Shown here: positions 1-55,908 of the stretch, piece after piece
Layout: each line of letters opens with the position of its first letter
Numbering within the stretch: the stretch's first letter is position 1
DNA from: an uncultured Chloroflexia bacterium
GTDB lineage: Bacteria > Chloroflexota > Limnocylindria > Limnocylindrales > CSP1-4
DNA: 64,000 bases
NCBI GenBank assembly: GCA_963838285.1
Contig: CAWIQP010000011.1
Span: 75,917-139,916, forward strand
Reading direction: 5' to 3'
Notes under the pieces: generated by a model
What the model was told of the DNA's origin: nothing
Seen by the model: only the letters and a program-made list of their open reading frames with translations
Databases searched by the model: none
Position numbers and translations under genes: made by a program

Positions 1-375
1 CAAGAAGCCGGAGACGGAGACCGAGACCGAAAGCCGGGTCCGCCGGGGTTTCCCGCCTCCGGTGGATCAGCCGCCAGCGATGGCCTGATGGCCGGCGCCG
101 GCCAGGGTGCGACGATGGACAGCGCCGGGGCGGCCGGTCTCGGCGTTGCCGCCTGCGGGCGCTGACGGTCTGGCGGCCGAACTGAATACGGGCGTGTCGT
201 CGCCGCTGCGGCGGCGAACCAACTGAATACGCGCGTCGCCGCTGCGGCGAGTTCAAGCCTGGGCGCCGGCGAGTACGCGAGCGAGCGCACATTGAGGTGC
301 GTGAGCGAGCGGCGGAGCCGGCAACGACGGCATGGGCCGCCCCGGCGGCGACCCCTCACCTGCGAGAGGGGCCTC

Positions 376-8557: not shown

Positions 8558-9001
8558 TTACCGGCGGCGGCGCTTGGCCTTGGCCGGCGCCTTGGACCGG
8601 ATCGTGGCCTCTGGGTGCGCCGTCTTCGAGCGCTGGAAGTAGCGCTGCCGGGCCAGACGCTCTTCATAGGCCTGGATCAGCGGCGGGAAGTGCCAGAACC
8701 TGATCCAGATGAAGAGGACCGCGCCGCCGATCATGGTCGGCAGGACGAAGATGAAGTCGAAGCCGAAGATCGAGAACATCAGCAGGAGCGAGAAGACTCC
8801 CACCGAGGTCCACATCAGCCACTCGTTGAGGTCGAGGAAGACCGAATAGGCGTGCAGCCGCCGGCCCTGGAAGTTGTAGAAGATGATCCCGGCGACGAGC
8901 AGGACCAGGGAGATCTGCCAGACCCAGTTGAACAGGGGCGGGAAGTTGCTCTGGTTGAAGCCGATGAGCAGCGTGCTGATCTGGTTCCAAGGGCCGTCCA
9001 C
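8558..9001 (-). CDS. small integral membrane protein (3-4 TMs) with Lys/Arg-rich C-terminal tail
   Basis: GTG start at 9001; Trp/Phe/Ile-rich hydrophobic segments; AT-richer codon usage than neighbours; tail KAPAKAKRRRR. Confidence 0.55.
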   Translation of the reverse strand: MDGPWNQISTLLIGFNQSNFPPLFNWVWQISLVLLVAGIIFYNFQGRRLHAYSVFLDLNEWLMWTSVGVFSLLLMFSIFGFDFIFVLPTMIGGAVLFIWIRFWHFPPLIQAYEERLARQRYFQRSKTAHPEATIRSKAPAKAKRRRR

Positions 9002-10842: not shown

Positions 10843-10942
10843 TGGTCCGCGGCGGGCATGGGCGCGGGCGCGGTCGCGGGACCTGGGGCGCGCGGCCAGC
10901 CGGCTCGTCGGACCCGCGTCCGCCGCCGACGGACCCACCGCC

Positions 10943-11150
10943 GCCACCGGGCAGTTCGCGCCCTCTCCGCCGGCTCATTTGACCTTCGGTGATCCAACCG
11001 GGCTGCGGCGGCGCGGCGTGCCGTCTCAGCCGACCCCGGGTCGCCGCCGGCGAATCACCGTCGCCACGGGGCAGTCCTCTCCGTATCCGCCGGCTCATTT
11101 GACCCGTGGTGATCCAACCGGGCTCCGGGCGCGAATCACTGGGTGACAGC
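10943..11150. repeat. imperfect tandem duplication, period 120 bp (~1.7 copies; second copy carries a ~35-bp deletion)
   Basis: CCGCCGGCTCATTTGACC(T/C)N2GGTGATCCAACCGGGCT at 10965-11005 and again at 11085-11125; GCGAATCAC also repeated. Confidence 0.75.
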
Positions 11151-11743
11151 CGATCGGTAATGACGGACCGATCGGTCGGTCGGAGGAGAGGGATCGCCCG
11201 GCCTCCGGGCGATCGAAAGTGGCGGGCGACAGGTCGGAGCCCAGACAGCCGACGAGGGGCCTGTCGCCGCGCCGCTCCAGCAGCTGTGGAGCCGCGCCGG
11301 AGAGCGCGGCTTCTGTATTTCCCGGGCGGCGGGGCCTCGGCCAGACGCTCCATGCGGCAGACTCGCCAGAACTTGCCGATTTGACATCAGGGCGACGTTG
11401 GGCAAGCCGCCGAACTCCCGATCCTCGACCGAAGCCCGATTCCTGCCGCCGGACCAGCCTCCGGAGCCACGCTCACGTTCGATTCCGGCCGCGCGGCCGC
11501 GTCACCTCGACCGGGCCCGACCACTCGATGCCGGGGCGGTCGCCGAATGTCGGTCTCGTGTGAAATAGGAAATACCGGGATCCGGAGGTCGGCCGGGCCC
11601 GTTGCGGCCGATCCATTCGCGGCCGGGCCCGTCGCGGCTGAGCGGGTCCGCGATCCACCGGCGAGGCGTCGGGGCGCGGCGAGGCGTCGGGGCGCGGCCA
11701 GGCGTACGGGGCGGCGAGGCGCCGCGGGATTGAGCCGGATGCG

Positions 11744-12355
11744 TCAGGGCACCGCCGGCTCCACTACCCACCGTCCCAGGCTCGAATCCCAGCCCGCGAC
11801 GGCGCGGACGGACGAGGCGCCTTCGACCGACTCCCGGCGGGCTCGAGCCTCCGCGACCGACTCGTCCCAGCCGGGCGGCACCAGGTCCGGGGCCAGATCC
11901 GAGAGCGGAGCCAGCACGAAGAGGCGGCGGCTCGCCTCCGGGTGCGGAACCTCGAGCAGGCGCGTGGCCTTTGCCGGATCCGGGGAGCGGCCCTCCTCCG
12001 GCCGTTCCACAGCCATTTGCTCGTCGCCGAAGAGCAGCAGGTCCAGGTCCAGCTCGCGCGGGCCGTAGCGAGCCCGGATCTGCCGGCCGAAGGCCCGCTC
12101 GATCGACTTGAGGGCGAGCAGCAGCGCGATCGGGCCGGTATTGGCGCCGGGGCCGGCGGGCACGTCGAGGACCACGACGGCGTTGTGGAAGTCGGGCTGG
12201 TCCGTCACCTCGACCGGGGTCGTGACGTACAGGCGCGATACGCCGGCAAGGGTCGTCCCCGGGAGCGCGGCGAGGGCGTGAACGGCCGCGGTCAGCGTCG
12301 CCCGGGCGTCGCCGAGGTTGGCCCCCAGCCCGATGTATGCCCGAACCGTGCGCAT
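11744..12355 (-). CDS. folK: 2-amino-4-hydroxy-6-hydroxymethyldihydropteridine pyrophosphokinase (HPPK)
   Basis: MRTVRAYIGLGANLGDARATL...FHNAVVVLD...RELDLDLLLFGD...EVPHPE, classic HPPK motifs. Confidence 0.85.
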   Translation of the reverse strand: MRTVRAYIGLGANLGDARATLTAAVHALAALPGTTLAGVSRLYVTTPVEVTDQPDFHNAVVVLDVPAGPGANTGPIALLLALKSIERAFGRQIRARYGPRELDLDLLLFGDEQMAVERPEEGRSPDPAKATRLLEVPHPEASRRLFVLAPLSDLAPDLVPPGWDESVAEARARRESVEGASSVRAVAGWDSSLGRWVVEPAVP

Positions 12356-12432: not shown

Positions 12433-13660
12433 GTGCGCCCGGTATTCGTGCTCATTCTCCACCCGGCGGCTCCCGCCGATGCCGGGCCCCTGGTCCGCGC
12501 GCTCGCGGAAGCTCGCCGAGCGCTCGCGGAGCGGCAGCGTGGCGCGTTCCTGGCCGCCGGCGCCGACGTCGGCCGAGATCGTGGCCGGTCCGCCGGACGG
12601 GCTCTCGTTCGGCGAGCGGCTGGCGGCCGAGGTTCGGGCGCGGGCCGGCGCGGAGGCGAAAGGGTCCGCGCCGAGGGCGGCGGCCGCCGAGCGGGCAGCG
12701 GCGAGGGACGCGGCCGAGCCGGCGGCGGATGGCGGCGGCCTGGTAGTCCTGGGCTCTGGCAGCATCCCCCTGGCCCGGGCAGCGGACCTTCGGCGCTTCG
12801 TGGAGGCGGCCGCGGGGCCCGGCGGGCACGCGCTGGCGAACAACCGCTATTCCGCGGACGTGGTCGCGATCTCGCGAGCGGCGGATCTGGCGGGGCTGCC
12901 GCCACTCCCCGCCGACAACGCCCTTCCCCGGTGGCTGGAGGAGTGGGCCGGAGTGGCCGTCACGGATCTCCGGTCGCGCTGGCGGCTGGGCGTCGACATC
13001 GACACGCCGCTCGATCTGATCGTGCTGCGCGATCCGGCGGCTCGCGAGCTCCACGCGACGGCGCCACTCGTCGGCGAGCGGCTGGCGGCACTCGCCGAGG
13101 TGATCTCGAACCGCCGCGCCGAGTTGCTGGTCGCCGGCCGCGTCTCGGCGAGGACCCTGGCCTGGCTGGAGCGCGGCGTCGCCTGCCGCGTCCGAGCCCT
13201 GGTCGAGGAGCGTGGACTGCGCGCCGCGTCGGCCCTCGCTCAATCCGGCGGCAAACGTGACGCGAGGCACGGCGGCGCCACGGCCGGCGCCACGGGCAAC
13301 GTCCGCCCGCCACGCTCGATCCTCGGCGAGTTGCTCGACCGCGACGGCCCGGAATCGCTGGCCCACACCGTATCGAAGCTGGCCGACGCCGCGGTCGTCG
13401 ACACGCGGGTCCTCCTGGCCCATCGGGCCGGCCCGGCCGACTCTCCGACCTCGCCTTCGCCAGCCTCCTCGCCCGACGCCGAGGAGCGCTTCGCCTCCGA
13501 CCTGCTGCTGCCCGCGTCCATCGCCGATCCGTGGCTCCGGGCTCTCGCCTCCTCGGCCGCGACGGCCCCCTCCGACCACCCGATCCTTCTCGGCGGCCAC
13601 ACGCTGCTCAACGGCGGACTGCGACTGCTCGCGGAGCGAGCTCGTGCGGGGGCCCGATGA
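12433..13660 (+). CDS. DUF2064/TIGR04282-like (nucleotide-diphospho-sugar-transferase-fold) protein with extra C-terminal domain; probable frameshift ~12568
   Basis: N-terminus VFVLILHPAAPADAGPLVRAL in frame of ORF 12433; remainder (GLVVLGSGSIPLARAADL...GVDIDTPLDLIVL, cf. DUF2064 DIDTPEDL) in frame of ORF 11942..13660; true start uncertain. Confidence 0.45.
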
Positions 13661-14858
13661 CGCCCGGTCGCCGTCCGCCTCCGCCGGATTCCCGGCAACC
13701 GTCCGATCGCCGGTCTCAGTCCGAGCCTTCGACGGGCAGTTCTACCGAGCTCGTCTCCTTCATTCGAGCCGAGATCGACGCGAGCCCCGACGCGCCGCAT
13801 CACCTTCGCGAGATACATGGAACGGGCCCTCTACGAGCCCGAACTGGGCTACTACCGCCAGGCCGCCGACCGACCTACCGACGCCGGCGACTTCCTGACC
13901 GCGCCCGAGACTCATCCCATCTTCGGCTGGACCCTCTCCCGCCGGATCGAGGCGATGTGGAACGAGCTGGGTCGCCCCCGGCCGTTCGACCTGGTCGAGT
14001 ACGGCGCAGGGTCCGGCACGCTGGCTCTTTCGATCCTCGACGGGCTGAGCCGACGGATTTCGACCGACCTGCTCGAAGCGATCCGATACCGGCCCATCGA
14101 ATCGAACCCGAACCGGCTGACCGACCTGCGCGACGGCTTCGAAAGGGCCGGCCATCTCGAGCGCCTGGCGCCAACCGGCTCTCCACCCAAGGGGGTCGTG
14201 CCCGTCACCGGCGTCGTCATTGCCAACGAGTTCCTCGACGCCATGCCCGTTCACCGTTTCGCGGTCCGTGGCGGGAGCCTGCTCGAGCTGTACGTCGCGT
14301 GGCTGGGACGGCTTCGTCCAAGTCGCCGCGGAACCGTCGACGCCGGAGCTCGCCGCCCGTCTCGCCGAGGACGGGGTCGAGATCGGCCAGCTCGCCGAAG
14401 GCCAGGTCGGCGAGATCTCCCTGGGCCTCGCCCCGTGGCTCCGGGGAGTGGCCGCCGGCCTCGATCGCGGCTTCGTCCTGGTAGTGGACTACGGCTACGA
14501 CGCGTCCGAGCTGTACGGCCCGCGCCGCCTGGCCGGCACCCTGCTCGGGTATCGCGGACATCGCGTGGAGGAAGACCCGTTCGCGTCCCCGGGCGAGGTG
14601 GACCTGACCGCCCACGTCGACTTCACCGCCGTGGAGCGGCTGGCCGCGAGCCAGGGCTTCCGGACCGTCTCGTCGACCACGCAGTCGGAGTTCCTCGTCT
14701 CCGCCGGCCTCGAGGAGGAGCTGCGCGCCCTGCAAGCCTCGCCCGATCTCACCCTGGCCGACTACACCCGCGCCCGCTCCGGCATCGTCCGCATGCTCGA
14801 CCCGCGCCACATGGGCCGCTTCCGCGTCCTGGTTATGGCCCGCAAGGAGCCCGGATAG
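13657..14858 (+). CDS. SAM-dependent methyltransferase MidA/NDUFAF7 family (DUF185), with two apparent +1 frameshifts (~13795, ~14305)
   Basis: ATG 13657 overlaps upstream stop (ATGA); motif segments lie in three frames: LVSFIRAEIDASPDAP | ITFARYMERALYEPELGYY...DLVEYGAGSGTLA | GFVQVAAEPS...VDYGY...DLTAHVDFTAV. Confidence 0.8.
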
Positions 14859-30472: not shown

Positions 30473-30538
30473 GGCCAGGGCGAGGGCCAGGGCCAGGGCG
30501 AGGGCGAGGGCGAGGGCGAGGGCGAGGGCGAGGGCGCA
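30473..30538. repeat. hexanucleotide microsatellite (GGCSAG)x11 immediately after the nuoN stop
   Basis: GGCCAGGGCGAGGGCCAGGGCCAGGGCGAGGGCGAG... ; ORF 30234..30632 reading through it (ARARAR...) looks spurious. Confidence 0.9.
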
Positions 30539-38006: not shown

Positions 38007-38887
38007 CGACTGAGAAACCGCCGCGATTGGGCCAGGCGGACATGCACATCCATTCGATAGCTTCGGATGGCACGGGATCGGCCGCCCAGATCCTCGACTA
38101 CGCGGAGAACCGCACCGACCTGGATCTGATAGCAGTCGCCGACCACGAGCGCATCGAGGCCGCAGTGGAGTGTCAGCGGCTGGCCCGCGAGCGCGGCAGC
38201 CGGTTGGAGGTCGTCGTCGGCGAGGAGGTAACCACGCGCAGCGGCCACCTGCTCGGCCTATTCCTGCAGGCGCGCCTCAAGCGAAACCAGCGCCTCGAGA
38301 CGACCGTCGCCGAGATCCACGAGCAGGGCGGTCTGGCAATCGTGCCGCACCCGTTCTCCGCCTTCACCAAGGGCATGCGCAAGCACGCCATCATGCGGGT
38401 CCACCTCTCGTCCGATCCCCTGGTCTACTGGGATGCGCTGGAGGGCTACAACCCCTCTACGGCAGGCCGTTACGGCCGGGCCGCTACCATCAGGCTCGCC
38501 GCCGAGCTCGGCCTGGCGCTGGTCGGAAACAGCGACGCCCACACTCTCGACACCATCGGCGACGGCCGAACCACCTTCCCCGGTTCGACCTCGGAGGACT
38601 ACCGGCGGGCCATCGGCGAGCGAACCACCAGCGGCGTCTGCGCGGACTGGGGCCTCGTCCGCGAGGCGCTCATCTACGGCCGCCAGGTCCGCAAGCAGGC
38701 CCGAGACGTGGCCCGCTGGAGCCGGCGCAACCTGCTTCGAGACGACGCGCCGCGCGACCTGGGGGTGCCGCAGGATCAGCTGGCCCTCCAGCGGCAGCTC
38801 GAGTCCGAGTACCTCTCCGGACGAGGCAGGGCCCGCCACATGGCCGAGTCCGCGGAGCGCCAAGAGGCGGAGGAGCCGTCGGCGTGA
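38003..38887 (+). CDS. PHP-domain (polymerase/histidinol-phosphatase-like) metal-dependent phosphoesterase
   Basis: GTGA overlap; DMHIHSIASDGTGS...IAVADHERIE...IVPHPFS...GNSDAHTLDTIG. Confidence 0.7.
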   Translation: MTTEKPPRLGQADMHIHSIASDGTGSAAQILDYAENRTDLDLIAVADHERIEAAVECQRLARERGSRLEVVVGEEVTTRSGHLLGLFLQARLKRNQRLETTVAEIHEQGGLAIVPHPFSAFTKGMRKHAIMRVHLSSDPLVYWDALEGYNPSTAGRYGRAATIRLAAELGLALVGNSDAHTLDTIGDGRTTFPGSTSEDYRRAIGERTTSGVCADWGLVREALIYGRQVRKQARDVARWSRRNLLRDDAPRDLGVPQDQLALQRQLESEYLSGRGRARHMAESAERQEAEEPSA

Positions 38888-40183: not shown

Positions 40184-43100
40184 TCAGGCGGGCGGCTCGT
40201 CCTTCCGGGACCGCTTGGGGGCCTCGGCTTCGCCACTCCCCGGGGAGGCGGGCGCGGGCGAGGCCGGTTCCGGCGAGACCGGCTCGGCGGACGCGACTTC
40301 GGCATCGGCAGTCTCGGTCGCCTCGACCCCATCGGTCGACTCTTCGGTGCCGGCGGATAGCAGCTTGGACCTGCGGTAGCCGACCACCACCCGGTGCTCC
40401 CAGGCGGCCCAGGCGGCCAGCCCGGCCACGAGAAGCGTGAACATCGTCAGCAGGATCGACCACGTCCCGATCAGCTTGACCGGAGCGGACTCCTGCAGGT
40501 TGACCGAGAACTGGAAGCCGTAGAACCAGGTCGGGAGCAGGGCGTTGTAGACGCTGATGATCGTGTTGGGCATCGGCAGGGCCGAGAGGTTCGGGTACAG
40601 GACGACGAACGCCACGACGGCGAAGGCGCAGACGCCGAGCACGAGGCGGCGCGGGTTGACGGCGGTCAGGGCCACGAACGCCAGGATCGCCAGGATCGGC
40701 AGCAGCACGAGCACGATCCCGTCGGACGGGAGCGCCGCCTGGAAGATGATGTCGCGCGGCCCGTTCTGACCGAGCCACCACAGCAGCACGCCGGCCACCG
40801 CGACCGGTACGAGCAGCTGGAGGATCCACAGATTGTCGTCGTGGCCGGCGTTCTGCCGGCGCTCGATCCGCCACAGGAGATAGACGAGGGAGGCCAGGGC
40901 GGCGACCAGGACGATGGCGATCAGCAGCACCCGCGTCTCGACGCGGACGTCGCCCGTCCCCGTTCCGCAGATGGTGTTGCCGAAGTAGTCGGCCGTGTTC
41001 ACCCGGGCCAGGCCGCACAGCGGGTACTTGAGCAGCCATACGGCGGCCGGGAAGAGCAGGGCCGCGGCCGCCGCGACCCTGGCCAGCAGCCATGTTCGTC
41101 GCGATGGGCCGTGCCACAGCTCGGCCAGGAAGTAGGCGAGCGCTAACAGGAAGAAGGGCAAGGCCGTGTAGAAGTGGTACTGGAACGCGGCTCTATCGAT
41201 CCGCGCCCACGACAGCCATTGCCAGAAGAAGGCCACGGCTATCAAGGTCAGGGCAAGGCTCCGCCTCTTGAAGGCCTGCCAGCAGACGAAGGCCATTGCG
41301 ACGATCGCCATCCACCACAGCGCCGGATTGCCGCCGTCGTAGATCATCGAGCCGGCGTCGTTGGCGTAGCCGATGCTCTCGAACCAGACGGGCTTGAGGT
41401 CCATCGGCCATGCCCACCACGGCGAGCTCGCCGCGTGCGAGGCGCGCAGGTCGTTGTGGTAGTTGTACATCTGGATGGTCAGATCCCAGAGCGTCTGCCC
41501 GGTGTGCCCGGCGGGCCAGGCGTTGTCGCAGACACCGGTGACCGGCTCGACGTGCCAGCAGGCGATGGCCGGCAGCGGACCGGTGGCGGCGGTCTCCGTC
41601 TGCCACGGCATGGCCCAGGGGAAGTACACGACCACGTAGACGACGATCGGCAGGACCAGCAAGCACGCGCTCATCCAGGCTGCCGGCAGGCCGAAGCCCG
41701 AGCCCAGGCGCAGCCACCCGGTGGGGGCGGGCGCCGCCGGCTCGGCAAACCGCGACGGGTCGTCGGGACCAGGCGGCACGGCCAGCGGTCCGAACCCGAG
41801 CCCGCCGGCGAAGCGGAAGGCGACGGCGGCGGCGGCTCCGGCGGCGATCCCGGCGGCCCCCACCTCGAGGAGAAGCCCGCTCTGGCGCACGACGCCCGCG
41901 GCGCCGGCCAGGACTCCGATGACGATCGGGGCCCCGATCGCGAACCACAGCTCTTCCCGCGTCCAGGCGATCGGGTGGTACGCGTTCGCGGCCGCCGCGA
42001 CGGCGGTGATCGTCAGCATGAGGATGAAGAAGGTGTAGTTCGGGGCGCCGTTCTGGATCGTGCCCGGCGACAACAGCAACGCGGCCCCAAACAGCCCGGC
42101 CGCGACGACGGCGGTCACCACCCAGACGAAGACCTTGTCGGGCGTCGTTCGCACCGAGAACGCCCAGACGAACCCGCCGACGACCACGGCCAGCGCCAGC
42201 CCGATCAGCAGGATCACGCCCACGGGGCTGCCCGTGTTGGGCTCGGTGGTCATTTCCGCGATCGCCATCCAGCCCAGGACGCCGGTCCCGGCCGCGAGGC
42301 CGAGGATCGTGATCAGCCGGCCCAGCGCCGACCGGATCAGGATCAGGATCCCGATGCTGGCGATCGCGTACAGGGCCACCCACTTGGAGGCCAGCCCCAG
42401 GCCGAGGATCACCCCCAGGATCGGCATCGTGACCCAGAAGGCGATCCGGCTCTTCCAGACGTTCAACCACAAGATGGCGAAGAGCAGGTAGGCCAATAAC
42501 AGGAAGCCGCCCACGTACGTGTCGTTCATCGCGATGCGCGATTGGACGAAGAGCATCCCGTCGGTCAAGGAGAAGAGGGCGACGAGCAGCCCGATTGACC
42601 GCCGGCGGAACAGGACGCGGGCCAGCAGATACAGGCACGCCGCCATCAGGGCGCCGAAGAGGACCCCGATGATGCGCCACGAGAAGGCGAATTGACCGAC
42701 GTCCACGGTCGCCATTGAGCCGTCCGACGAGAACGCCAGGACCTGCTCGCGGTCCGTGTCCGGCAGCGTGGGAGTCGAATCGAGGCCGATCGCAGCCGGC
42801 TGGAAGGGCAGCGGCGCGTCCGAGAAGACGGCGTCGCCGTTGGTCTCGATCGCGTAGACGGTCCAGCCCTTGCCGTCGGGCGTTCGTCCGAGAGCCTGGG
42901 CGACCCTGGTGGCGCCGTCGAAGACGACCTGCGTGACCGGCCCCGGCATCTGGATCTCGCTCGAGTCCTTGGTCAACGTTCCGGGGCCGCCCGAAGTGTC
43001 GGGATGGATCAGCACGATCGAGTCGCCGGCGGCGACGTAGGACGCCTGGTTGGTGTTGATGCTGGTGCCCTGGAGGTCCGAGTAGTTGAGTGCGATCGAG

Positions 43101-48350: not shown

Positions 48351-50118
48351 GCGCCCAGCGGGAAGATTGCGACCCGCCTTCGATAGTCTGACCCGTCCCG
48401 AGTTCCTGGCGGCCGCGGTCGCTCCCGCCGCGGCGGCCGCGCTGACGCTCCTCCTCATCGTCCCCACCGTCGCCCCCGGCGTCCTCAACTGGGACACGGC
48501 CGAATTCCAGACGGTGGGCCCGGTACTCGGAACCGCCCATCCGACCGGCTACCCGAGCTACGTGATCCTTGGCTGGCTGGCCTCGATCGTCCTGCAGCCC
48601 CTTGGCGATCCGGCCTACCGGATGAACCTGCTCCAGGCGATCCTGGCGGCAGCGGCCGTGGCTGGGACGGTGGCCGTAGTCCAGGTCCTGACCGGGCGGC
48701 GTCTGATCGCGCTGGCCACCGGGCTGATGCTGGCCTGCAGCCAGCTCTTCTGGCGCCTCTCCACCCACGCCGACCCGCACATGTTCCACGTCGCCCTCAC
48801 GGCGATCCTGTTCGTGGCCCTGCTGATGTGGGACCTGCGGCTTCGCAGCGAAGACCCGGATACGGTCCGCCGCGCCGACCGCTGGCTGGTGTTCGCGGCC
48901 TTCGTCTACGGCGTGGCAGTGGCCAACCACTCCCTGGCGCTGCTGCTGCCGCCCGCCATCGGCCTGTTCGTTCTGGTCGCGGACTGGCGGGTCATCTTCC
49001 GCCCGAGGACGATCGTCGCCTGCGTCGCCGTCCTCGTCGGCACGATGGCGGTTCTGTTCAGCGAGCTGCCGATCCGGGCGGCGATGAACGCGCCGCTCGT
49101 GTACGGCCACCCGGACACGTGGAGCGGCTTTCAGTACGTGGTCCTGGCCGAGCAATTCCGGGGCAGCCTGTCGGATCCGTTCGGCGACCTCCCGGCAAAG
49201 GCCGGACAGGTGCTGGACCTCTTCACGGGCTGGCTGGGCCCGCTGGCCATGGTGGCGGCCCTGGGAGTGGTCACGAGCCTCATCCGGCGCCCCCGCTACC
49301 TGATCCTGAGCGGGCTCTCGGCGGTGGTCACGTGCGGCTTCGCGGCCTCCTACGCCAACGCCGACATCCAGCGCTACTACCTGTTGCCGTTGCTCATCGT
49401 CTTCACCTGGATCGGCCTCGCGGCCGCCGACGTGGTCGCGCTGATCGGCTGGGTCGCTGCGGAGGTGCGGCAGCGCGCAACCCCGGAGGCGTCGCGGGGC
49501 CTGGATTCGGCCGCCGAACCGGGCGATGACCCGCGGCCGGGCGACGCGCCGGAGGCAGGGACGGCGCCGTCCGGGCTCGCCATCGACGGGACTCCCGCTC
49601 TCTCGCCCCGCCTCGGAACCGGACTGGCCGGCTGGGCCGTCATCGCCGGCGAGATCGTCGTCGCCGCGGCGATCGTCTTCTCGGCCGTGAACGTCGTGCC
49701 CGCGCGGCAGCTCCCACAGAGCGGCACGAACCCGGGCGGCGTGAGCCAGGCGAACGACACCTCCGACGCGGCCTGGCTGAAGGCGGTCCTCGCTCCCGCA
49801 AGCGCGGGCGGGCTGCCGGCCAACTCGGTGATCATGAGCTGGTGGAGCGCGTCCACCACGCTCTGGTACGGCCAGCGAGTCCTGGGCATGCGGCCCGACA
49901 TAACCATCATCGACGACAGCACCCGCGTGGACGACAACCTGGGCACGGTTCAGGATGTGTTCAACTCCTACCTGGGTAATAGGCCGGTGTTCACGATCCG
50001 GATCGAAGGCGGCGTCGACGGGATGGACGCGCTGAACCAGGAGTACGAGATCGGGACCTACGACCTGGGGAACGGCTACACGATCGCCCAGGTGCTAGCT
50101 CGAAAGGGAAGCCAGTGA
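48340..50118 (+). CDS. DUF2723/TMEM260-like GT-C membrane protein
   Basis: NWDTAEFQTVGPVLGTAHPTGYPSYVILGW signature; TTG start overlapping upstream stop by 11 nt; C-terminal soluble domain. Confidence 0.7.
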   Translation: MAGERPAGRLRPAFDSLTRPEFLAAAVAPAAAAALTLLLIVPTVAPGVLNWDTAEFQTVGPVLGTAHPTGYPSYVILGWLASIVLQPLGDPAYRMNLLQAILAAAAVAGTVAVVQVLTGRRLIALATGLMLACSQLFWRLSTHADPHMFHVALTAILFVALLMWDLRLRSEDPDTVRRADRWLVFAAFVYGVAVANHSLALLLPPAIGLFVLVADWRVIFRPRTIVACVAVLVGTMAVLFSELPIRAAMNAPLVYGHPDTWSGFQYVVLAEQFRGSLSDPFGDLPAKAGQVLDLFTGWLGPLAMVAALGVVTSLIRRPRYLILSGLSAVVTCGFAASYANADIQRYYLLPLLIVFTWIGLAAADVVALIGWVAAEVRQRATPEASRGLDSAAEPGDDPRPGDAPEAGTAPSGLAIDGTPALSPRLGTGLAGWAVIAGEIVVAAAIVFSAVNVVPARQLPQSGTNPGGVSQANDTSDAAWLKAVLAPASAGGLPANSVIMSWWSASTTLWYGQRVLGMRPDITIIDDSTRVDDNLGTVQDVFNSYLGNRPVFTIRIEGGVDGMDALNQEYEIGTYDLGNGYTIAQVLARKGSQ

Positions 50119-50915
50119 CAGCAGGGGCGAGCGCCGGAGCAGGCGCGGTTGCGGGATCGACCGCCAAGCGCGTCGAGGAGCTCTCGTTCTTCTTCCCCGC
50201 GCACAACGAAGAGGCCAACCTCGAGGCCCTGGTCGACGAGGCGCTGGGCGCCCTACCCGAGCTTGCGGAGAAGTTCGAGATCATCGCGGTGGACGACGGC
50301 TCGCGCGACCGCACGCCCGCAATCGCCGACGAGCTCGCCGCCAAGCATCCGGGCGTCTTCCGGGTCGTTCATCACCCCACCAACCTCGGCTACGGCGCGG
50401 CCCTTCGGTCCGGGTTCGGGGCCACCCGCTTCGGGCTGATCGCGTTCATCGACGGCGACCGCCAGTTCAGGGTCGCGGACGTCGGCCGGCTTACCGAGCG
50501 GCTCGCCGCGGCCGACGCCCCGGACGTCGTGGTCGGATACCGCATCGGGCGGGCCGACCCGCTCATCCGGCGCTGGTACGCTCGCATCTACCACTTCTCG
50601 AACCGGATCTTCTTCGGTGTCCGGGTCCGCGACATCGACTGCGCCTGCAAGCTCTTCAAGCGCGAGGCACTGGTCCCGGTCCGGATATCGTCGGGCGGCG
50701 CCTTCTTCACGGCCGAGCTGCTGATCAAGCTTCGCTACGAGGGTCGCAAGCTGGCGGAGGTCGGCGTTCCGCACTACCCGCGGATTGCCGGCTCCCAGAC
50801 CGGGGCCAGACCGAAGGTCGTCCTGCGCGCGGTGCGCGACTTCTGGGGGCTGCGGTTCCGACTGTGGTTCCGCCGCGGCGGGGCGATGCGGCGCGGAGAG
50901 CCGATCCTCGGCTAG
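50115..50915 (+). CDS. GT2 polyprenyl-phosphate sugar synthase (Ppm1/DPM1-like)
   Basis: GTGA overlap; FFFPAHNEEANL...IIAVDDGSRDRT...GYGAALRSG...DGDRQF...DCACKLFKRE. Confidence 0.85.
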   Translation: MTAGASAGAGAVAGSTAKRVEELSFFFPAHNEEANLEALVDEALGALPELAEKFEIIAVDDGSRDRTPAIADELAAKHPGVFRVVHHPTNLGYGAALRSGFGATRFGLIAFIDGDRQFRVADVGRLTERLAAADAPDVVVGYRIGRADPLIRRWYARIYHFSNRIFFGVRVRDIDCACKLFKREALVPVRISSGGAFFTAELLIKLRYEGRKLAEVGVPHYPRIAGSQTGARPKVVLRAVRDFWGLRFRLWFRRGGAMRRGEPILG

Positions 50916-50925
50916 TCTCGCCGGT

Positions 50926-51188
50926 CGGGCGGCCGATCCCTTCGTTGGCTTCTCCGCTCCTCGCTCACGCACGTCCAGGTGCGCTCGCTGCGGTGCTCGC
51001 GCGGCGCCTCGGCCTCGGCTCGCCGGACCGGCGAGAGTCTCCTGGCGGGCGGCCGATCCCTTCGTTGCCTTCTCCGCTCCTCGCTCACGCACGTCCAGGT
51101 GCGCTCGCTGCGGTGCTCGCGCGGCGCCTCGGCCTCGGCTCGCCGGACCGGCGAGAGTCTCCTGGCGGCCTGGCGGGCGGCCGATCCC
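50926..51188. repeat. tandem repeat, period 120 bp, ~2.2 near-identical copies with internal palindromes
   Basis: 50941-51060 and 51061-51180 differ by one substitution plus an 8-bp duplication (CCTGGCGG); contains CTCGCCGG-A-CCGGCGAG perfect palindrome and CGCAC-N6-GTGCG hairpin; lies between convergent genes. Confidence 0.9.
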
Positions 51189-51213
51189 TGCCGCGCGGCG
51201 CCTCGGCATCGCG

Positions 51214-51738
51214 TCACTCGGGAGGCGGCCCCTCCGAACCCGGCCCCTCGCGATGCTCTTCTTCAAGGTCGACGTCCAGGGAGTTGACGAATTCGCGGAA
51301 GACCTCGAGCTTCTCGTCGACCTGCGACTCGGGCTCGACGCCCGCTCGATCGATGACATCCGTGGCGGCGAAGATTCGGACGCCCGTCCGGACGGCCAGG
51401 GCCAGCGCGTCCGACGGCCGGGCGTCGATCGCGTAGGTGCGGCCGCCCAGTTCCAGCTCGAGCGTGGCGTGGAACGTCTCGTCCGAGAGACTCGAAACGA
51501 TGACGCGCTGCAGCTTCACGCCGAGTTCGGCCAGGGCGGTGGCGAACAGGTCGTGGGTGAATGGCCGCTCGGGGGTGACCCCCTGCAGGCGTGTCGCGAT
51601 GGCATTGGCCTCCCAGGGGCCGATCCAGATCGGGAGGTAGCGTTCGCGTCCCGTTTCCTTGAGCAGGACGACGTGCTGGCTGGAGAGCATGTGCACCCGG
51701 ACGCTCTCGACGACGACTTCGACGAGCGACTCTGCCAT
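51214..51738 (-). CDS. bifunctional nuclease (BFN/DUF151) family protein
   Basis: MLSSQHVVLLKETGRERYLPIWIGPWEANAIA...RPFTHDL...IDARPSDALALAVRTGVRIF; acidic C-terminus. Confidence 0.8.
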   Translation of the reverse strand: MAESLVEVVVESVRVHMLSSQHVVLLKETGRERYLPIWIGPWEANAIATRLQGVTPERPFTHDLFATALAELGVKLQRVIVSSLSDETFHATLELELGGRTYAIDARPSDALALAVRTGVRIFAATDVIDRAGVEPESQVDEKLEVFREFVNSLDVDLEEEHREGPGSEGPPPE

Positions 51739-51781
51739 CGGTCGATTATCCCACTCCGGGCGCGGCGCGGCCCCCGACCGG

Positions 51782-54040
51782 CTAGTGCTTCTTGGTCGGC
51801 GAGGGCGTCGGCAGCGGGATGAGGCTGGGCCCCGGCGAGGCCGAGGCCGAGGGTGCGGCGGACGGATTGAGGTAGGCGCTCATCAGGTTGCCGCCTTCGG
51901 TCCAGTACAGGGTCGGGCTCGAACCGCCGGTGCCGGGGATCACGAACATTCCGGTGAGGGCCGAGAACCAGGGCGTGTTGGCTGGAACCATGTACTGGCC
52001 GACGATGCTGCCGTCGCTCTTCGTGAACGCGACGATGCGCCGGTTCAGCCCGTCGTAGGCGTAGAAGGTGCCCGCGTCCTGGGCCGGGTTGTCGGCAGTG
52101 AGGCGCGTGTAGAAGGGACCGTTCGGCCGGAGCAGCTGGTCGCCCGTCGAGGCGGGCTTCCAGGTATGGACCACCTGGCCGAGCTCGTACTGGGTGATCT
52201 GGCCCTTGTCGACGAGGTAGACCTTGCCGTCTACGTACATGTCGTCGACCGTCGAGACGTCCTGGGAGACGCTCAGGTAGTTGATCCGGCCGAGCTGGGG
52301 ATAGCCGCTGCCGTCGGGCGACGGCGGGTACTTGAGGACCTGGTGCTGGCTCGGGGCCACGATGTAGAAGTTGTACTGATCCTGGTTGGCGTTGGTGATG
52401 AACGTCCCCATGGCGCGCGGCCCGACGCCCCAGTTGGCGTTGTCGGGGATGCTGACCTTGATCAAGGACCCACGACCCGTGGTGTCGCCTTGCGCCGGGT
52501 GCCACCGCCACAGCGAGTTGAACGAGTCGAGGATCAGGACGTCCTGACCGCCGGTTGCAAGCAGGCGCGGAGTCCCGACGATACCGCCACCGATGGGCGG
52601 CGGCTGATTGACGATCAGCACCGGGATCTTGGCCCCCGTCTGCAGGTTCACCCGATAGACGGTGCCGACCGTGCTGTCGAGGACGTAGGCCGCTCCGTCG
52701 GGACCGAGCACGAGACCTTCCAGATCGTCCGTCAGGAACGACAGGACGACCTTCGGCTGGACGGTGGTCACGTGGTAGTAGTCGTTCAGACCGGCCACGA
52801 CCTGGGCTCGCAGACCGGCCAGATCGGCCGAATCGTAGCCGTTCTGCTGTGCCACCTGGAGTTCGCTGTAGGCATCCTCCAGATACCCGGCCGCCGTGGC
52901 CGGGTCGCTCGAGAGGAGGTCCTTGCCGTTGCCGTAGACGTCGAAGAGGTCCGTCACGACCTGGTTGTGGGCCACCTGGGCCTTCTGCTGGCGGTCGACG
53001 TTGTCGGTGCGGCCGGTCCCGGACAGCAGCCACATGCTGGTGCCGACGATGGCGATCACCGCCAGCAGGCCGATGACCGCGATGGCGGCACGCTGCTGCC
53101 GCTCCCGTCGAACGGTCATGGGCGTCACTCGACCGCGGGACATGGCCCGCTGGGGCATGCGGTCGAAGAAGCCGTAGACGCCGCGACGCAGCCAGCCGTC
53201 GGCGACGATCTGGGCCTGCCGGGCCGATGCCTGGACGGCGGTCACGCCGCCGGACACGGCGTCGGCCAGGGGGATCGGCGAGCGTTCCGGGGCTCCGGCC
53301 ATCGAGTCGCCCGGCCAGACCGGCTTGAGAGGCGACGCCTTGTGAGTGGACGCGACCTCCGAGGCCTCGATGACCACGACGCCGTCGCCGCCGGTGCTGC
53401 CGAGGCTGCCCGACCCGAACTGGCGGTGGATCTGCTCGACGGCGGCCTGAGGATGCAGCTGCATGACCGCGTCCTGGATCGGGCCCAGGCCGATGCGCCG
53501 GGAGACGTTCGGGGACATGAGGATGAGGCAGTCGCCCGCGGTTATCTCGCCGTGCCAGACCTCGGGGCCATCCACGTCGTCGACGGGCAGGCCGCTGTCC
53601 GGGCTCGAGTCCGGGAGGGTCAGGAGCCGCGCCTGCCGGACGAGGTAAGCCTCGGCCGGGCCGAGCGTGGCCACGTAGAGCTCGTTGCCCCTGACTACGG
53701 CGAGGGCGAGACCGATCGGACCGGATTCGCCGGCGGCGACGACCGGCCTGTCCGGCGAGTGGAAGAGGACCTTGTTGGCCGCGCCGATCGACTTCCGAAG
53801 GCAGACGGCAATACCGGCCGACAGGTCGTAGTAGTAGTCATCCCGTATACGCTCGGCAACGAGCTTGGTCGCCTCGCGCAGCTTGCGCCCACCGGCCCCC
53901 GTGACGAGCAGGTACAGGCTCCCCTTGGTGCGCGACGTCGAGCCGATGAGGGGCTCGACAACGACGACGGTGTCGGCTGAGTCGGGTAGTCGTTGTGACT
54001 CGGCGAGGACGCCGAGGTTCATGTGCAGACGGACTGCCAT
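51782..54040 (-). CDS. membrane protein with N-terminal cytoplasmic domain, single TM and C-terminal extracytoplasmic beta-propeller-like domain
   Basis: 752 aa; TM AAIAVIGLLAVIAIVGTSMWLL near aa 300; repeated strand motifs in C-terminal 400 aa; Pro/Ser-rich tail LIPLPTPSPTKKH. Confidence 0.45.
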   Translation of the reverse strand: MAVRLHMNLGVLAESQRLPDSADTVVVVEPLIGSTSRTKGSLYLLVTGAGGRKLREATKLVAERIRDDYYYDLSAGIAVCLRKSIGAANKVLFHSPDRPVVAAGESGPIGLALAVVRGNELYVATLGPAEAYLVRQARLLTLPDSSPDSGLPVDDVDGPEVWHGEITAGDCLILMSPNVSRRIGLGPIQDAVMQLHPQAAVEQIHRQFGSGSLGSTGGDGVVVIEASEVASTHKASPLKPVWPGDSMAGAPERSPIPLADAVSGGVTAVQASARQAQIVADGWLRRGVYGFFDRMPQRAMSRGRVTPMTVRRERQQRAAIAVIGLLAVIAIVGTSMWLLSGTGRTDNVDRQQKAQVAHNQVVTDLFDVYGNGKDLLSSDPATAAGYLEDAYSELQVAQQNGYDSADLAGLRAQVVAGLNDYYHVTTVQPKVVLSFLTDDLEGLVLGPDGAAYVLDSTVGTVYRVNLQTGAKIPVLIVNQPPPIGGGIVGTPRLLATGGQDVLILDSFNSLWRWHPAQGDTTGRGSLIKVSIPDNANWGVGPRAMGTFITNANQDQYNFYIVAPSQHQVLKYPPSPDGSGYPQLGRINYLSVSQDVSTVDDMYVDGKVYLVDKGQITQYELGQVVHTWKPASTGDQLLRPNGPFYTRLTADNPAQDAGTFYAYDGLNRRIVAFTKSDGSIVGQYMVPANTPWFSALTGMFVIPGTGGSSPTLYWTEGGNLMSAYLNPSAAPSASASPGPSLIPLPTPSPTKKH

Positions 54041-54124
54041 TGGCGGCTACTAGCGGCGGGACTGATTGCGCCCGTGGTATCCAGCCGCATCCCAGGCGGC
54101 CGGACTGGCGTTCGCAGGTGGGGA

Positions 54125-54571
54125 TTATACGTGGCGCGTCGTTATGCGGAGCTGACGGACGGGCGCCCGAGTTGTGGCTCGGAGCGCGGCGAGGAGCTCG
54201 GGCGAGCGCAGGCGCACCTCCTGGGCGACGATCGGCTCGTCCGTTTCGACGGTCGCCACGCCCTGTCGCAGGTCGACGAGACGGCACGATCCGGCCGCCG
54301 CGGGGATGCGCTCGGCCACGATTTCCAGCCAGGCGGCCGCCGCTCGAGCCTGTTCGAGCTGGTCCTCCAGGCCGAACTGCCGAGCCGTCCGCGGCAGCAG
54401 ATCGGCCAGCCGCTCCATGCCCCTGGGCTTGTCCTGCGGGTCGCGGTCGAGATCGCCGGAACCGGCGCGACGGTAGCCGCCTTCGGCGCCGCCGCGCTCG
54501 CCGACCTCTCGCTCGACCCGGCCCCTGTCGCCGGGGCCGCCTTCGCCCGGCCGGCGAGTGGAACCCGTCAT
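54125..54571 (-). CDS. DUF721-family protein (conserved recF-downstream gene)
   Basis: internal ATG 54571 forms ATGA overlap with recF stop; ...GMERLADLLPRTARQFGLEDQLEQARAAAAWLEIV...LRSPELLAAL. Confidence 0.65.
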   Translation of the reverse strand: MTGSTRRPGEGGPGDRGRVEREVGERGGAEGGYRRAGSGDLDRDPQDKPRGMERLADLLPRTARQFGLEDQLEQARAAAAWLEIVAERIPAAAGSCRLVDLRQGVATVETDEPIVAQEVRLRSPELLAALRATTRAPVRQLRITTRHV

Positions 54572-55908
54572 GAGCCGCCCTCCACAATCCGCGCGCCACC
54601 CTCGCCATCCGGCACCACTTGCCACGGCCGCGCCCGGCGGCGCAGGTCGACGTCGATGTCCTCCGGGTCCGTCGTCGTGACGAGTGCCTGGGGCAGCTCG
54701 GCGATGCGGCGCACCAGGTGCCCCCGGCGGACGTGGTCCAGCTCGCTGAATACGTCGTCGAGGAGCAGCAGCGGCGGCCGGCCGTCCAGCGACGTCAGCA
54801 GGTCGAGCTCCGCCAGCTTGAGCGCCAGGATTGCCGTCCGCTGCTGGCCGCGGGACGAGAAAGTGGCCAGGTCGCGTCCCCCGAGGCCGAACATCAGGTC
54901 GTCGCGGTGAGGACCGACGAGGGTGGAGCCGTTCCAGACCTCCTTCTCGGCCGTCTCGGCCAGCCGCCTCGCCAGGGCGTCCCGCGCCGCCTCGCCGGGG
55001 AGCGGCGCGGCATTCGATACATACGCGACCGTGAGCCGCTCCTCGTCCGGCGCGATCTCACGGTGGGCGGCGGCCAGAGGCTCCGCCAGCAACTCCAGCA
55101 GGCGAAGCCGCGCCTCCACGACCGCGGCCCCGGAAGCGAGAAGCGGCTCGTCCCAGAGCCGGAGCTGGTCGCGGTCCGCCTCGCCCTCGCGAATGGCCCG
55201 CAGCAGGCTGTTGCGCTGCTGCAGGGCCCGGCCGTAGGTGACCATGTTGGCGGAGTAGCTCGGGTCGTGGGGGGCGGTCAGTCCATCCAGGGCGGCTCGC
55301 CTCAGCGCCGGCGACCCGATGACCAGCAGCATCTCCTCGGGCGCGAAGAGGACGGTCCGCAAGTGCTCCGCCAGCGCCCCCGGCCGTCTCGGAACGCCGT
55401 TCACCTGGATTCTCTTTCGGCCGCCCGCCTGGAGCGTCAGTTCCAGGGACGCGACCGGCGGCGTGGGGGCCGGCACACCGAAGGCCGCCATCTCCTCTGT
55501 GCTGGGCCGCGCGCCGCCCCCGCCCGCGTCGGTTGCTCCCGCGTCGGTTGCTCCCGCGTTGCGGTCACCAGCCGCCGGCTCCTCGAAGCGCCCCAGAAGG
55601 CCTTCTATCCGGAGGAAGTCCGCGCCCCAGCGGATCAGCTCGGCGTCGGTCGCGGTCCGGTGGCTTCGTCCCAGCGCCAGCAGCACCACGGCCTCGAGCA
55701 GAGTCGTCTTGCCCGCGGCGTTCGGTCCCCATATGAGCTGCGGCCCGGGCCCGAGCTCGATGTCGAGCGCGGCGTAGCCCCGGAGATTCCGGATGGTCAG
55801 AGATCGAAGGAGCGTCGCGGGTCTCCGGTGAGACGCGCCGGCGCGAGGATCGGAGATGTGCGGCTCCTGACGGTCGTTGATCTCGTGCCCTTGATCCGCC
55901 GGTCGCAA
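54568..55908 (-). CDS. recF: DNA replication and repair protein RecF
   Basis: LRSLTIRNLRGYAALDIELGPGPQLIWGPNAAGKTTLLEA (Walker A)...; contains a low-complexity insert (AGATDAGATDAGGGG); N-terminal 33 aa of ORF may not be translated. Confidence 0.9.
   Translation of the reverse strand: MRPADQGHEINDRQEPHISDPRAGASHRRPATLLRSLTIRNLRGYAALDIELGPGPQLIWGPNAAGKTTLLEAVVLLALGRSHRTATDAELIRWGADFLRIEGLLGRFEEPAAGDRNAGATDAGATDAGGGGARPSTEEMAAFGVPAPTPPVASLELTLQAGGRKRIQVNGVPRRPGALAEHLRTVLFAPEEMLLVIGSPALRRAALDGLTAPHDPSYSANMVTYGRALQQRNSLLRAIREGEADRDQLRLWDEPLLASGAAVVEARLRLLELLAEPLAAAHREIAPDEERLTVAYVSNAAPLPGEAARDALARRLAETAEKEVWNGSTLVGPHRDDLMFGLGGRDLATFSSRGQQRTAILALKLAELDLLTSLDGRPPLLLLDDVFSELDHVRRGHLVRRIAELPQALVTTTDPEDIDVDLRRRARPWQVVPDGEGGARIVEGGS

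What the first reader, a model, noticed from the sequence alone, without database searches (positions are those of the whole stretch)
50926..51188. Near-perfect 120-bp tandem repeat (2.2 copies) between convergent ppm1-like and BFN-nuclease genes
Copies 50941-51060 and 51061-51180 differ by one substitution and an 8-bp internal duplication. Such near-identity implies recent duplication or active maintenance. Each unit carries a perfect palindrome CTCGCCGG-A-CCGGCGAG and a CGCAC-N6-GTGCG hairpin. The array sits in a 3'-3' intergenic gap. The purH-folK spacer independently holds another, unrelated tandem duplication with the same 120-bp period. Candidate roles are a bidirectional terminator/attenuator array, a REP/MITE-like element or a protein-binding array; it is not a CRISPR (no spacers).
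Basis: seen in the sequence. Interest (0 to 1): 0.55.

Follow-up and report, generated by a model that had tools for sequence, protein, structure and literature searches.

The report
Tandemly duplicated dispersed intergenic repeat element
The 120-bp tandem repeat is real, but it is two adjacent copies of a roughly 125-nt hairpin-forming repeat element found in several intergenic gaps of this uncultured soil Chloroflexota lineage; this is an ordinary kind of bacterial repeat (MITE/REP-like), newly seen in this group.

Summary
Window 50926-51168 holds two 120-bp copies that differ by one base. A third, internally deleted copy and an 8-bp slippage duplication follow, filling the 298-bp gap between convergent GT2 and BFN genes.

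It is not a locus-specific oddity. The unit belongs to a dispersed family seen at four unrelated intergenic loci:
- the GT2/BFN gap;
- window 227-356 (minus strand), between lon and dnaJ, and at the same site in relatives;
- ahcY-metK in metagenome contigs;
- a CpaE-like/MscS-like gap in metagenome contigs.

Each element has imperfect terminal inverted repeats of about 21 nt that covary, a nearly invariant core with a 5-bp hairpin, and a bracketing direct repeat of about 21 nt.

Copy number and indels differ between near-identical strains: one copy in L006, two in the window, L001 and L002. The natural period is 128-129 nt. Relatives with 85-93% identical BFN have only 31-127 nt in this gap and no element.

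Best reading: a MITE/REPIN/BIME-like non-autonomous repeat whose local array expanded by slippage or unequal recombination between the bracketing direct repeats. No target-site duplication, transposase or transcript evidence is available. It is a new member of a known kind, of modest interest.

The parts
50115..50915 (+). Upstream flanking gene: GT2 glycosyltransferase (ppm1-like). Its stop codon TAG at 50913-50915 abuts the element.
   Evidence: Pfam PF00535, E 2.6e-26; ORF list.
50916..51036 (+). Full element copy 1, from terminal inverted repeat to terminal inverted repeat (121 nt).
   Evidence: Covariance-model hit 50913-51043, 138 bits. nhmmer E 8.6e-33. Folds as a rod-like hairpin, -68.5 kcal/mol, z -2.6 (+) and -3.4 (-).
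50916..50936 (+). Left terminal inverted repeat (TCTCGCCGGTC perfect, about 21 nt imperfect).
   Evidence: Inverted repeat I2: 50916-50931 with 51021-51036, 16 nt, 94% complementary. The helix is kept with compensatory changes across the family.
50940..50993 (+). Conserved core, including the hairpin CGCAC-GTCCAG-GTGCG at 50968-50983.
   Evidence: Invariant columns in alignment A4. Hairpin 97-98% paired with one compensatory CG to GC change.
51015..51036 (+). Right terminal inverted repeat, containing the local palindrome CTCGCCGG-A-CCGGCGAG (51019-51035).
   Evidence: The local palindrome is kept in only 75% of cells across the family.
51037..51156 (+). Full element copy 2. Its left inverted repeat is degenerate (GTCTCCTGGC). 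Core at 51060-51113, hairpin at 51088-51103, palindrome at 51139-51155.
   Evidence: 99% match. nhmmer hit 51040-51158, E 8.9e-31. One substitution relative to copy 1.
50921..50941 (+). Bracketing direct repeat, first of three (CCGGTCGGGCGGCCGATCCCT).
   Evidence: family D2.
51041..51061 (+). Bracketing direct repeat, second of three.
   Evidence: family D2.
51169..51189 (+). Bracketing direct repeat, third of three. It is also the start of the short-form copy.
   Evidence: family D2.
51161..51176 (+). 8-bp slippage duplication CCTGGCGG x2. It is present at both junctions in strain L002 and at one junction here.
51169..51211 (+). Third, 'short-form' copy: the left end joined to the right part, with about 53 nt of core deleted.
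   Evidence: D3: 51192-51211, 95%. Alignment to the full element. The same architecture follows the full copy in L064 at 8562-8633.
51214..51738 (-). Convergent flanking gene: bifunctional nuclease (BFN) domain protein.
   Evidence: Pfam PF02577, E 3.7e-38.
227..356 (-). Second locus of the same family in this window: a diverged full copy in the gap between lon and dnaJ.
   Evidence: nhmmer E 8e-14 then 7e-25. Covariance model 102 bits. Orthologous copies in relatives L064-L071.
170..250 (-). Short sub-repeats (right-end hairpin TCGCCGC-N-GCGGCGA plus the GTATTCAGTT linker, twice) that follow the lon-dnaJ copy.
   Evidence: Sequence. Hairpin pattern hits at 200-217 and 236-250.

Best explanation
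The array is a copy-number variant of a dispersed, non-coding intergenic repeat element specific to a Limnocylindrales (Chloroflexota) lineage. The element is about 121-130 nt long and forms a hairpin. It resembles a MITE, REPIN or BIME. Each element has imperfect terminal inverted repeats of about 21 nt that close a rod-like hairpin. It also has a nearly invariant, non-palindromic core with a 5-bp hairpin, and a direct repeat of about 21 nt that recurs after the element.

Shown:
- The element occupies at least four unrelated intergenic loci.
- It is absent from the GT2/BFN gap in relatives.
- Its copy number and small indels differ between near-identical strains.

Inferred:
- It reached new loci by non-autonomous transposition, or a similar trans-acting mechanism that recognises its ends.
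- The window's 2.2-copy array arose recently from a one-copy allele like L006. The likely route is replication slippage or unequal recombination between the bracketing direct repeats.
- The 8-bp CCTGGCGG indel and the internally deleted short form are further slippage products.
- Any effect on the neighbouring genes, such as a 3'-end hairpin on the GT2 or BFN transcripts, is a by-product. The array does not exist for that purpose.
For: Dispersal:
- A 24-mer from the core hit five metagenome contigs at two other loci: ahcY-metK (L059, L063) and a CpaE-like/MscS-like gap (L060-L062).
- A profile of the copies found a diverged copy in this window at 227-356.
- The same copy sits at the orthologous lon-dnaJ gap in relatives L064-L071.

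Lineage-specific presence:
- The GT2/BFN gap is 31-127 nt with no element in L009-L015, whose BFN is 85-93% identical.
- The MetK P0180 lineage has no copy in 150 kb.

Structure:
- 91.7-92.7% of cells are paired, against at most 38% in slid controls.
- The terminal helix has three compensatory pairs and the core hairpin has one.
- Single elements fold at -64 to -78 kcal/mol, mostly with z between -2.6 and -4.9.

Instability:
- L006 has one copy. The window, L001 and L002 have two, with periods of 120 or 128.
- L059 has two copies and L061 has 1.3.
- Between the window and L002 (99.4% identical over 6.5 kb), the differences are concentrated in the array.
- One scaffold has an N-gap exactly at an element.

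Non-coding:
- Copies differ by indels of 1, 2, 6 and 8 nt, and the period is 128-129.
- ORFs spanning the gap have no Pfam hit.
- The definitions of MITE, REP/BIME and REPIN fit (PMC3184786, PMC3337134).
Against: - No target-site duplication could be defined, because the right boundary blurs into the linker and direct repeat, and no closely alignable empty site was found.
- No transposase or RAYT gene was linked to the element.
- Only four loci and 11 full copies were seen. Genome-wide copy number is unknown.
- The orthologous lon-dnaJ copies are 74% identical, while 4-fold degenerate sites in the neighbouring clpB are 58% identical. The core is nearly invariant in all copies. This points to constraint or gene conversion rather than neutral decay of dead insertions.
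- A long, conserved, non-palindromic core is atypical for REPINs.
- No match in plasmid, phage or viral collections.
Confidence: 0.6

Rival explanations
1. The element is a host-functional, multi-copy structured element that acts at the RNA or DNA level. It could be a U-tract-independent terminator, a 3'-UTR stabiliser, or a protein-binding site. Under this view the tandem copies add dosage. This is not exclusive of a mobile origin.
For: - At three of four loci the element starts 0-8 nt after the stop codon of the upstream same-strand gene.
- Relatives carry a simple GC-rich hairpin in the same GT2/BFN gap, so the element could have replaced a terminator.
- The closing stem and the hairpin covary.
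- Orthologous copies are more conserved than 4-fold sites, and the core is nearly invariant.
- REP/BIME elements are known to stabilise mRNA and to bind proteins (PMC3184786).
Against: - No hairpin with a T-run was found and there is no Rfam match even at E up to 10.
- Orientation relative to transcription is not constant: the copy between the co-directional lon and dnaJ genes is antisense.
- The flanking genes at the four loci are functionally unrelated.
- The element is absent from the same gaps in relatives, which do without it.
- The folded two-copy gap is no more stable than shuffles.
Confidence: 0.25
2. The array is a purely local, one-off tandem duplication of unique intergenic DNA, with no family and no element.
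For: The two copies are 99% identical and bracketed by short direct repeats, as in simple slippage duplications.
Against: The same unit occurs at three other loci in this and other genomes.
Confidence: 0.02
3. The array is an assembly artefact: a single copy inflated to two by long-read assembly.
For: The contigs appear to be long-read metagenome assemblies. Homopolymer-type and 8-bp differences exist between assemblies. One related contig (L006) shows a single copy.
Against: - Three assemblies show two copies.
- The copies carry a fixed G/C difference shared by the window and L001.
- Short-read k=31 contigs from three runs break at the array edges, as expected for a real repeat.
- L006 differs by further substitutions and is a different strain.
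- Tandem copies also occur at other loci in independent short-read assemblies (L059, L061).
Confidence: 0.03
4. The array is a coding repeat: a 40-codon unit of a small protein, or a C-terminal extension of a neighbouring gene.
For: 120 is divisible by 3, and several frames are open across the gap.
Against: - The family period is 128-129, and copies differ by indels of 1, 2, 6 and 8 nt.
- No Pfam hit.
- A six-frame translation found no protein relative, although that search was weak.
- Open frames are expected in DNA of about 73% G+C.
Confidence: 0.02

Closest known systems
MITEs (miniature inverted-repeat transposable elements), e.g. the Neisseria Correia elements
   Same: Under 200 bp with no ORF. 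Terminal inverted repeats flank a core. Folds into a long stem-loop. Multiple intergenic copies. Presence or absence varies between related genomes.
   Different: No target-site duplication could be shown. No parent IS or transposase with matching ends was identified. Each element is followed by a direct repeat of about 21 nt that is part of the element, and copies tend to sit in short tandem arrays.
REP / BIME / REPIN elements (with RAYT transposases)
   Same: GC-rich palindromic ends in inverted orientation around a spacer. Mosaic clusters that combine full and short palindromic units. Located between convergent genes and in 3' regions. Long vertical persistence at some loci with sequence conservation.
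   Different: The spacer is long (about 80 nt), non-palindromic and the most conserved part. The conserved GTAG-type foot is not a family feature. Association with a RAYT gene and a copy number in the hundreds could not be tested. The lineage is Chloroflexota, not Proteobacteria.
MIRU-VNTR loci of Mycobacterium
   Same: A dispersed intergenic unit present as direct tandem repeats. Copy number varies between strains. GC-rich with imperfect terminal and internal inverted repeats. Abuts the stop codon of the upstream gene.
   Different: The unit is 120-130 nt, against 40-100 nt for MIRUs. The period is not a multiple of 3 and no ORF overlaps the flanking genes. Arrays hold only 1.2-2.3 copies. 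One locus is antisense to the operon.

Membership tests
MITE | Terminal inverted repeats flanking a core | tested here: met
   A 16-nt inverted repeat, 94% complementary, at 50916-50931 and 51021-51036. The helix is 93-96% paired across 7-11 copies with 2-3 compensatory pairs.
MITE | Small size (usually under 200 bp) with no transposase ORF | tested here: met
   121-131 nt. Frame-breaking indels between copies. No Pfam hit.
MITE | Multiple dispersed copies in a genome | tested here: met
   Two loci within this 64-kb window (50916-51211 and 227-356) and two more loci in related metagenome contigs. Genome-wide number unknown.
MITE | Target-site duplication flanking each copy | tested here: inconclusive
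   The flanks of four loci show no shared-length direct duplication. The right boundary is blurred by the linker and the element-borne direct repeat. The empty sites in relatives cannot be aligned.
MITE | Folds into a long, stable stem-loop | tested here: met
   -64 to -78 kcal/mol. z between -2.6 and -4.9 for six of eight strand folds.
MITE | A cognate autonomous IS or transposase with matching ends | not testable with these tools
REP / REPIN | [quoted passage not shown] | tested here: inconclusive
   Both ends are GC-rich and partly self-palindromic, and they are inverted relative to each other over about 21 nt. However, the left end is only a weak palindrome, and the 80-nt conserved spacer is atypical.
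REP / REPIN | Association with a RAYT (Y1 transposase) gene, and tens to hundreds of copies | not testable with these tools
   Only 64 kb of the genome plus fragments of relatives were available.
BIME-like mosaic cluster | Clusters that combine different palindromic-unit forms with linker motifs | tested here: met
   A full copy is followed by a short form, made of left end plus right end, at the GT2/BFN, lon-dnaJ (window and L064) and ahcY-metK (L063/L084) loci.
MIRU-VNTR | Dispersed intergenic unit in direct tandem arrays whose copy number varies between strains | tested here: met
   One copy against two at GT2/BFN. One against two at ahcY-metK (L063 and L059). 1 against 1.3 at the third locus (L060 and L061).
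MIRU-VNTR | Unit of 40-100 bp carrying small ORFs that overlap the stop and start codons of flanking operon genes | tested here: not met
   The unit is 120-130 nt and the period is 128-129. Indels are not multiples of 3. Two loci lie between convergent genes.
Intrinsic (Rho-independent) terminator | GC-rich hairpin followed by a T/U run | tested here: not met
   No such site in 50916-51213 on either strand. The sequence has no T-run.
CRISPR array | Short repeats of 23-50 bp separated by unique spacers of similar length | tested here: not met
   The 120-bp units lie head to tail with no spacers.
Any Rfam family | Match to a curated covariance model | tested here: not met
   No relevant match at E up to 10 in 50000-52000. 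No gathering-score match in the whole window.

The most novel reading that the evidence does not exclude
The nearly invariant, non-palindromic core (about 50 nt, with its 5-bp hairpin) held inside a covarying closing stem may not be mobile-element debris. It could be a functional module: either a multi-copy structured RNA, or the recognition site of a domesticated, RAYT-like or otherwise unknown end-binding enzyme in Limnocylindria. That would explain why orthologous copies are better conserved than 4-fold sites, and why full and short forms recur in a fixed order.
Probability: 0.15. Interest if true: 0.55.

Novelty: new member of a known kind. Interest (0 to 1): 0.3.

Why it matters
The finding explains a striking near-perfect repeat as an ordinary process: array expansion within a dispersed intergenic repeat family. 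It also documents such a family in Limnocylindria, an abundant but uncultured soil and freshwater class of Chloroflexota. No paper describing such repeats in Limnocylindria turned up in the one literature search I ran.

Practical consequences:
- These elements break short-read assemblies and leave scaffold gaps.
- They are the most variable spots between near-identical strains, so they could serve as strain markers, as VNTR loci do.
- They are places where MAGs are likely to be misassembled.

If the conserved core proves functional, it would be a new structured motif.

Tried and rejected
- **Rfam:** an E-value scan of 50000-52000 and a gathering-score scan of the whole window found nothing relevant.
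- **Promoter and terminator consensus scan:** nothing in the gap.
- **Folding the whole 298-nt gap:** no better than shuffles, z -1.5 and -0.3. Single elements do fold well.
- **Genome-collection scan with the window's exact inverted-repeat pair (TCTCGCCGGTC-N85-115-GACCGGCGAGA):** 43 hits in unrelated taxa, mostly coding and chance-like. Neither this locus nor any family member was among them. In hindsight the 11-mer is a variant particular to this copy, so this was a poor use of the single scan.
- **Viral-contig scan with the core hairpin pattern:** 0 hits.
- **blastn against plasmids and phages:** no match.
- **Six-frame translation of the element searched against the protein collection, to find miscalled ORFs over other copies:** nothing at E up to 10. 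Low-complexity candidates probably swamped the search.
- **Exact look-ups of DnaJ and ClpB from the window:** not on record.
- **L072 as a possible empty site at lon-dnaJ:** it is a scaffold N-gap, not an empty site.
- **MetK P0180 lineage as an empty-site comparison for ahcY-metK:** the gap holds unrelated sequence and cannot be aligned, so no target-site duplication could be inferred.
- **DGR template/variable repeat pair:** rejected. The single difference is G/C rather than at an adenine, and no reverse transcriptase lies nearby.
- **The 15-mer match at 38073-38087:** lies within long ORFs and is probably coding, so it is treated as chance.

Full report
**1.
Tandem Repeats Finder reports 50926-51168 with period 120, 2.0 copies and 99% matches. 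The two 120-nt copies differ only at 50948 (G) versus 51068 (C). A 21-nt block, CCTGGCGGGCGGCCGATCCCT, occurs three times at 50921, 51041 and 51169, with spacings of 120 and 128. The extra 8 nt is the CCTGGCGG duplication at 51161-51176. After the third block, 51192-51211 repeats an internal 20-mer of the unit at 95%. The array therefore ends in a third, internally deleted copy. The array fills the 298-nt gap between a GT2 glycosyltransferase (50115-50915, +) and a BFN-domain gene (51214-51738, -).

**2. Source organism and reality of the duplication.**
The BFN and GT2 proteins are found, exactly, on metagenome contigs. Homologues of BFN, ClpB and MetK are named Candidatus Limnocylindrales, in the phylum Chloroflexota.
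- Two long contigs carry two copies. L001 matches the window apart from one extra G. L002 has the 8-bp duplication at both junctions, giving a period of 128.
- L006, a k141 short-read contig from another sample, has a single copy with three substitutions. It is bracketed by the same direct repeat.
- k=31 contigs from three runs stop at the edges of the array.
- Between the window and L002 (99.4% identical over 6.5 kb), the differences pile up in 51000-51250. That bin holds 5 mismatches and 13 gap columns, against 0-1 differences per 250 nt in most other bins.

The array is therefore a real, polymorphic locus. It cannot be fully proven without reads.

**3. The unit is lineage-specific at this locus.**
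Relatives with 85-93% identical BFN keep the convergent GT2/BFN arrangement. Their gap is only 31-127 nt and contains no element. L012 lacks it at GT2/BFN. L012 comes from the same metagenome as L067, a contig of a lineage that carries the family at lon-dnaJ in other contigs. This fits a gain in the window's lineage, but assigning the two contigs to one organism is an inference.

**4. The unit is not locus-specific.**
A 24-mer from the core found five JGI contigs.
- L059 (two tandem copies, period 128) and L063 (one copy plus a short form) lie between the ahcY stop and the metK start.
- L060/L062 (one copy) and L061 (1.3 copies, period 129) lie between a CpaE/ParA-like gene and a convergent MscS-like gene.
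- A profile of these copies then found a diverged full copy in the window itself, at 227-356 on the minus strand, between lon and dnaJ.
- The same copy, in the same place and orientation, is present in relatives whose ClpB is 90% identical (L064-L071). One scaffold (L072) has an N-gap exactly there.
- No further copies appeared in about 217 kb of Limnocylindrales sequence searched with a covariance model, in 150 kb of the MetK P0180 lineage, or in 21 kb around L063's metK.
- Nothing was found in viral, plasmid or phage collections or in Rfam.

**5. Anatomy of the family (alignments A4 and A6).**
- *Terminal inverted repeats.* These are about 21 nt and imperfect. The consensus is GATCGCCGGTCGGGCGGCCGA paired with TCGGCTCGCCGGACGGCGATC. 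The window's copy 1 has TCTCGCCGGTC paired with GACCGGCGAGA.
- *Core.* A nearly invariant stretch, CCTTCGTTGCCTTCTCCGCTCCTCGCTCACG[C/G]AC-loop-GT[G/C]CGCTCGCT.
- *Linker and direct repeat.* A linker is followed by a second copy of the first 15-21 nt, forming a bracketing direct repeat.

On the named structure, 91.7-92.7% of cells pair, against at most 38% when partners are slid. The terminal helix has three pairs with compensatory changes (GC/UA; AU/GC/CG; CG/AU). The core hairpin has one (CG to GC in L059/L063). Single elements fold as rods of -64 to -78 kcal/mol, mostly with z between -2.6 and -4.9. The two-copy gap as a whole is not exceptional. Copies differ by indels of 1, 2, 6 and 8 nt and the natural period is 128-129, so the element is non-coding.

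At the four loci a full copy is followed by a short form, made of the left end joined to the right end. This gives a BIME-like mosaic.

**6. How the array arose.**
The single-copy allele (L006) already has the direct repeat on both sides of the unit. The two-copy alleles have DR-unit-DR-unit-DR. This is the signature of replication slippage or unequal recombination between the direct repeats. It is an inference from structure and has not been observed directly. The 120-nt period in the window is an 8-bp-shorter derivative of the 128-nt form. The shared 120-bp period with the purH-folK repeat is coincidental.

**7. Selfish element or functional element?**
- *For mobility:* four unrelated loci; gain at GT2/BFN; and copies at different loci in different contigs that resemble each other more closely than the two orthologous lon-dnaJ copies do (visible in alignments A2 and A4; pairwise identities were not computed).
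- *For constraint:* the orthologous lon-dnaJ copies are 74% identical, whereas 4-fold sites in the adjacent clpB are 58% identical, and the core is almost invariant. Persistent REPIN populations behave in a similar way (10.1101/2021.07.10.451892). Gene conversion or a host function would explain it equally well.
- *On orientation:* at three loci the element follows the upstream gene in the sense orientation, but at lon-dnaJ it is antisense. A strand-specific RNA role is therefore not obvious.
- *Not established:* no target-site duplication, transposase or transcript evidence was obtained.

**8. Classification.**
The element works like a MITE/REPIN/BIME-type intergenic repeat with MIRU-like tandem copy-number variation (definitions from PMC3184786, PMC3337134, PMC3116915). 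Membership in any one named family cannot be asserted.
- The MITE features other than target-site duplication and a cognate transposase are met.
- RAYT association for REPINs could not be tested.
- The ORF and size criteria for MIRUs are not met.

It is a new member of a known kind, in a lineage where the one literature search I ran turned up no description of such repeats.

Noticed in passing
window 10843-11743 (repeat at 10913-11135): The purH to folK gap is about 900 nt here, against 346 nt in relatives (L065, L067); folK is on the minus strand at 11744-12355. The 120-bp, 79%-identical tandem repeat duplicates the start of a non-coding block (about 11090-11275) that is conserved in the relatives. 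That block includes a hairpin, GATCGCCCGG-CCT-CCGGGCGATC at 11192-11214, which is replaced in relatives by a different but still complementary hairpin, AGCTCGG-TAT-CCGAGCT. It is a candidate structured leader or RNA with no Rfam match.
   Followed up: partly
window 51782-54040 (-): A 752-aa ORF next to BFN has no Pfam domain. It is hypervariable between otherwise near-identical strains: L001 differs by up to about 16% per 250 nt across 52250-54750 but by about 0.5% to the left of 51750. Relatives carry an ORF of similar size, also without Pfam hits, in the same position.
   Followed up: partly
window 170-250; L064 8540-8640: Upstream of dnaJ, a motif AACTGAATACG (or AATCGAATACAG) occurs twice about 40 nt apart, next to small GC hairpins, both here and in relatives. 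In relatives a MerR-family gene and HSP20 lie upstream of lon-dnaJ-clpB. This may be a heat-shock operator or a linker module of the repeat.
   Followed up: no
L029, L031, L038, L040, L043, L052, L057 (Fimbriimonadaceae MAG CAZHGD01): One Armatimonadota MAG holds seven copies of an unrelated 111-113-nt element. Several of the copies end in TCTCGCCGGTCTG...CAGACCGGCGAGA. This looks like a clear MITE-like family that happens to share the 11-nt ends used as the search pattern.
   Followed up: no
L072 1216-1310: A scaffold N-run sits exactly where the lon-dnaJ element lies in sister contigs. Several short-read contigs also end at the GT2/BFN array. These elements systematically break assemblies of this lineage.
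   Followed up: yes
window 30473-30536 and 11659-11721: A hexanucleotide repeat (GGCGAG) x10.7 at 94% identity, and an 18-nt x3.6 repeat (CGGCGAGGCGTCGGGGCG) inside the purH-folK gap.
   Followed up: no
window 200-217, 236-250, 11041-11053, 13131-13151, 14392-14413, 43023-43035, 51020-51034, 51140-51154, 53727-53739: The small palindrome TCGCCG-N1-10-CGGCGA occurs 9 times, against about 1 expected from shuffles. Four of the nine belong to the element family. The status of the other five, some of which are probably coding, was not examined.
   Followed up: no
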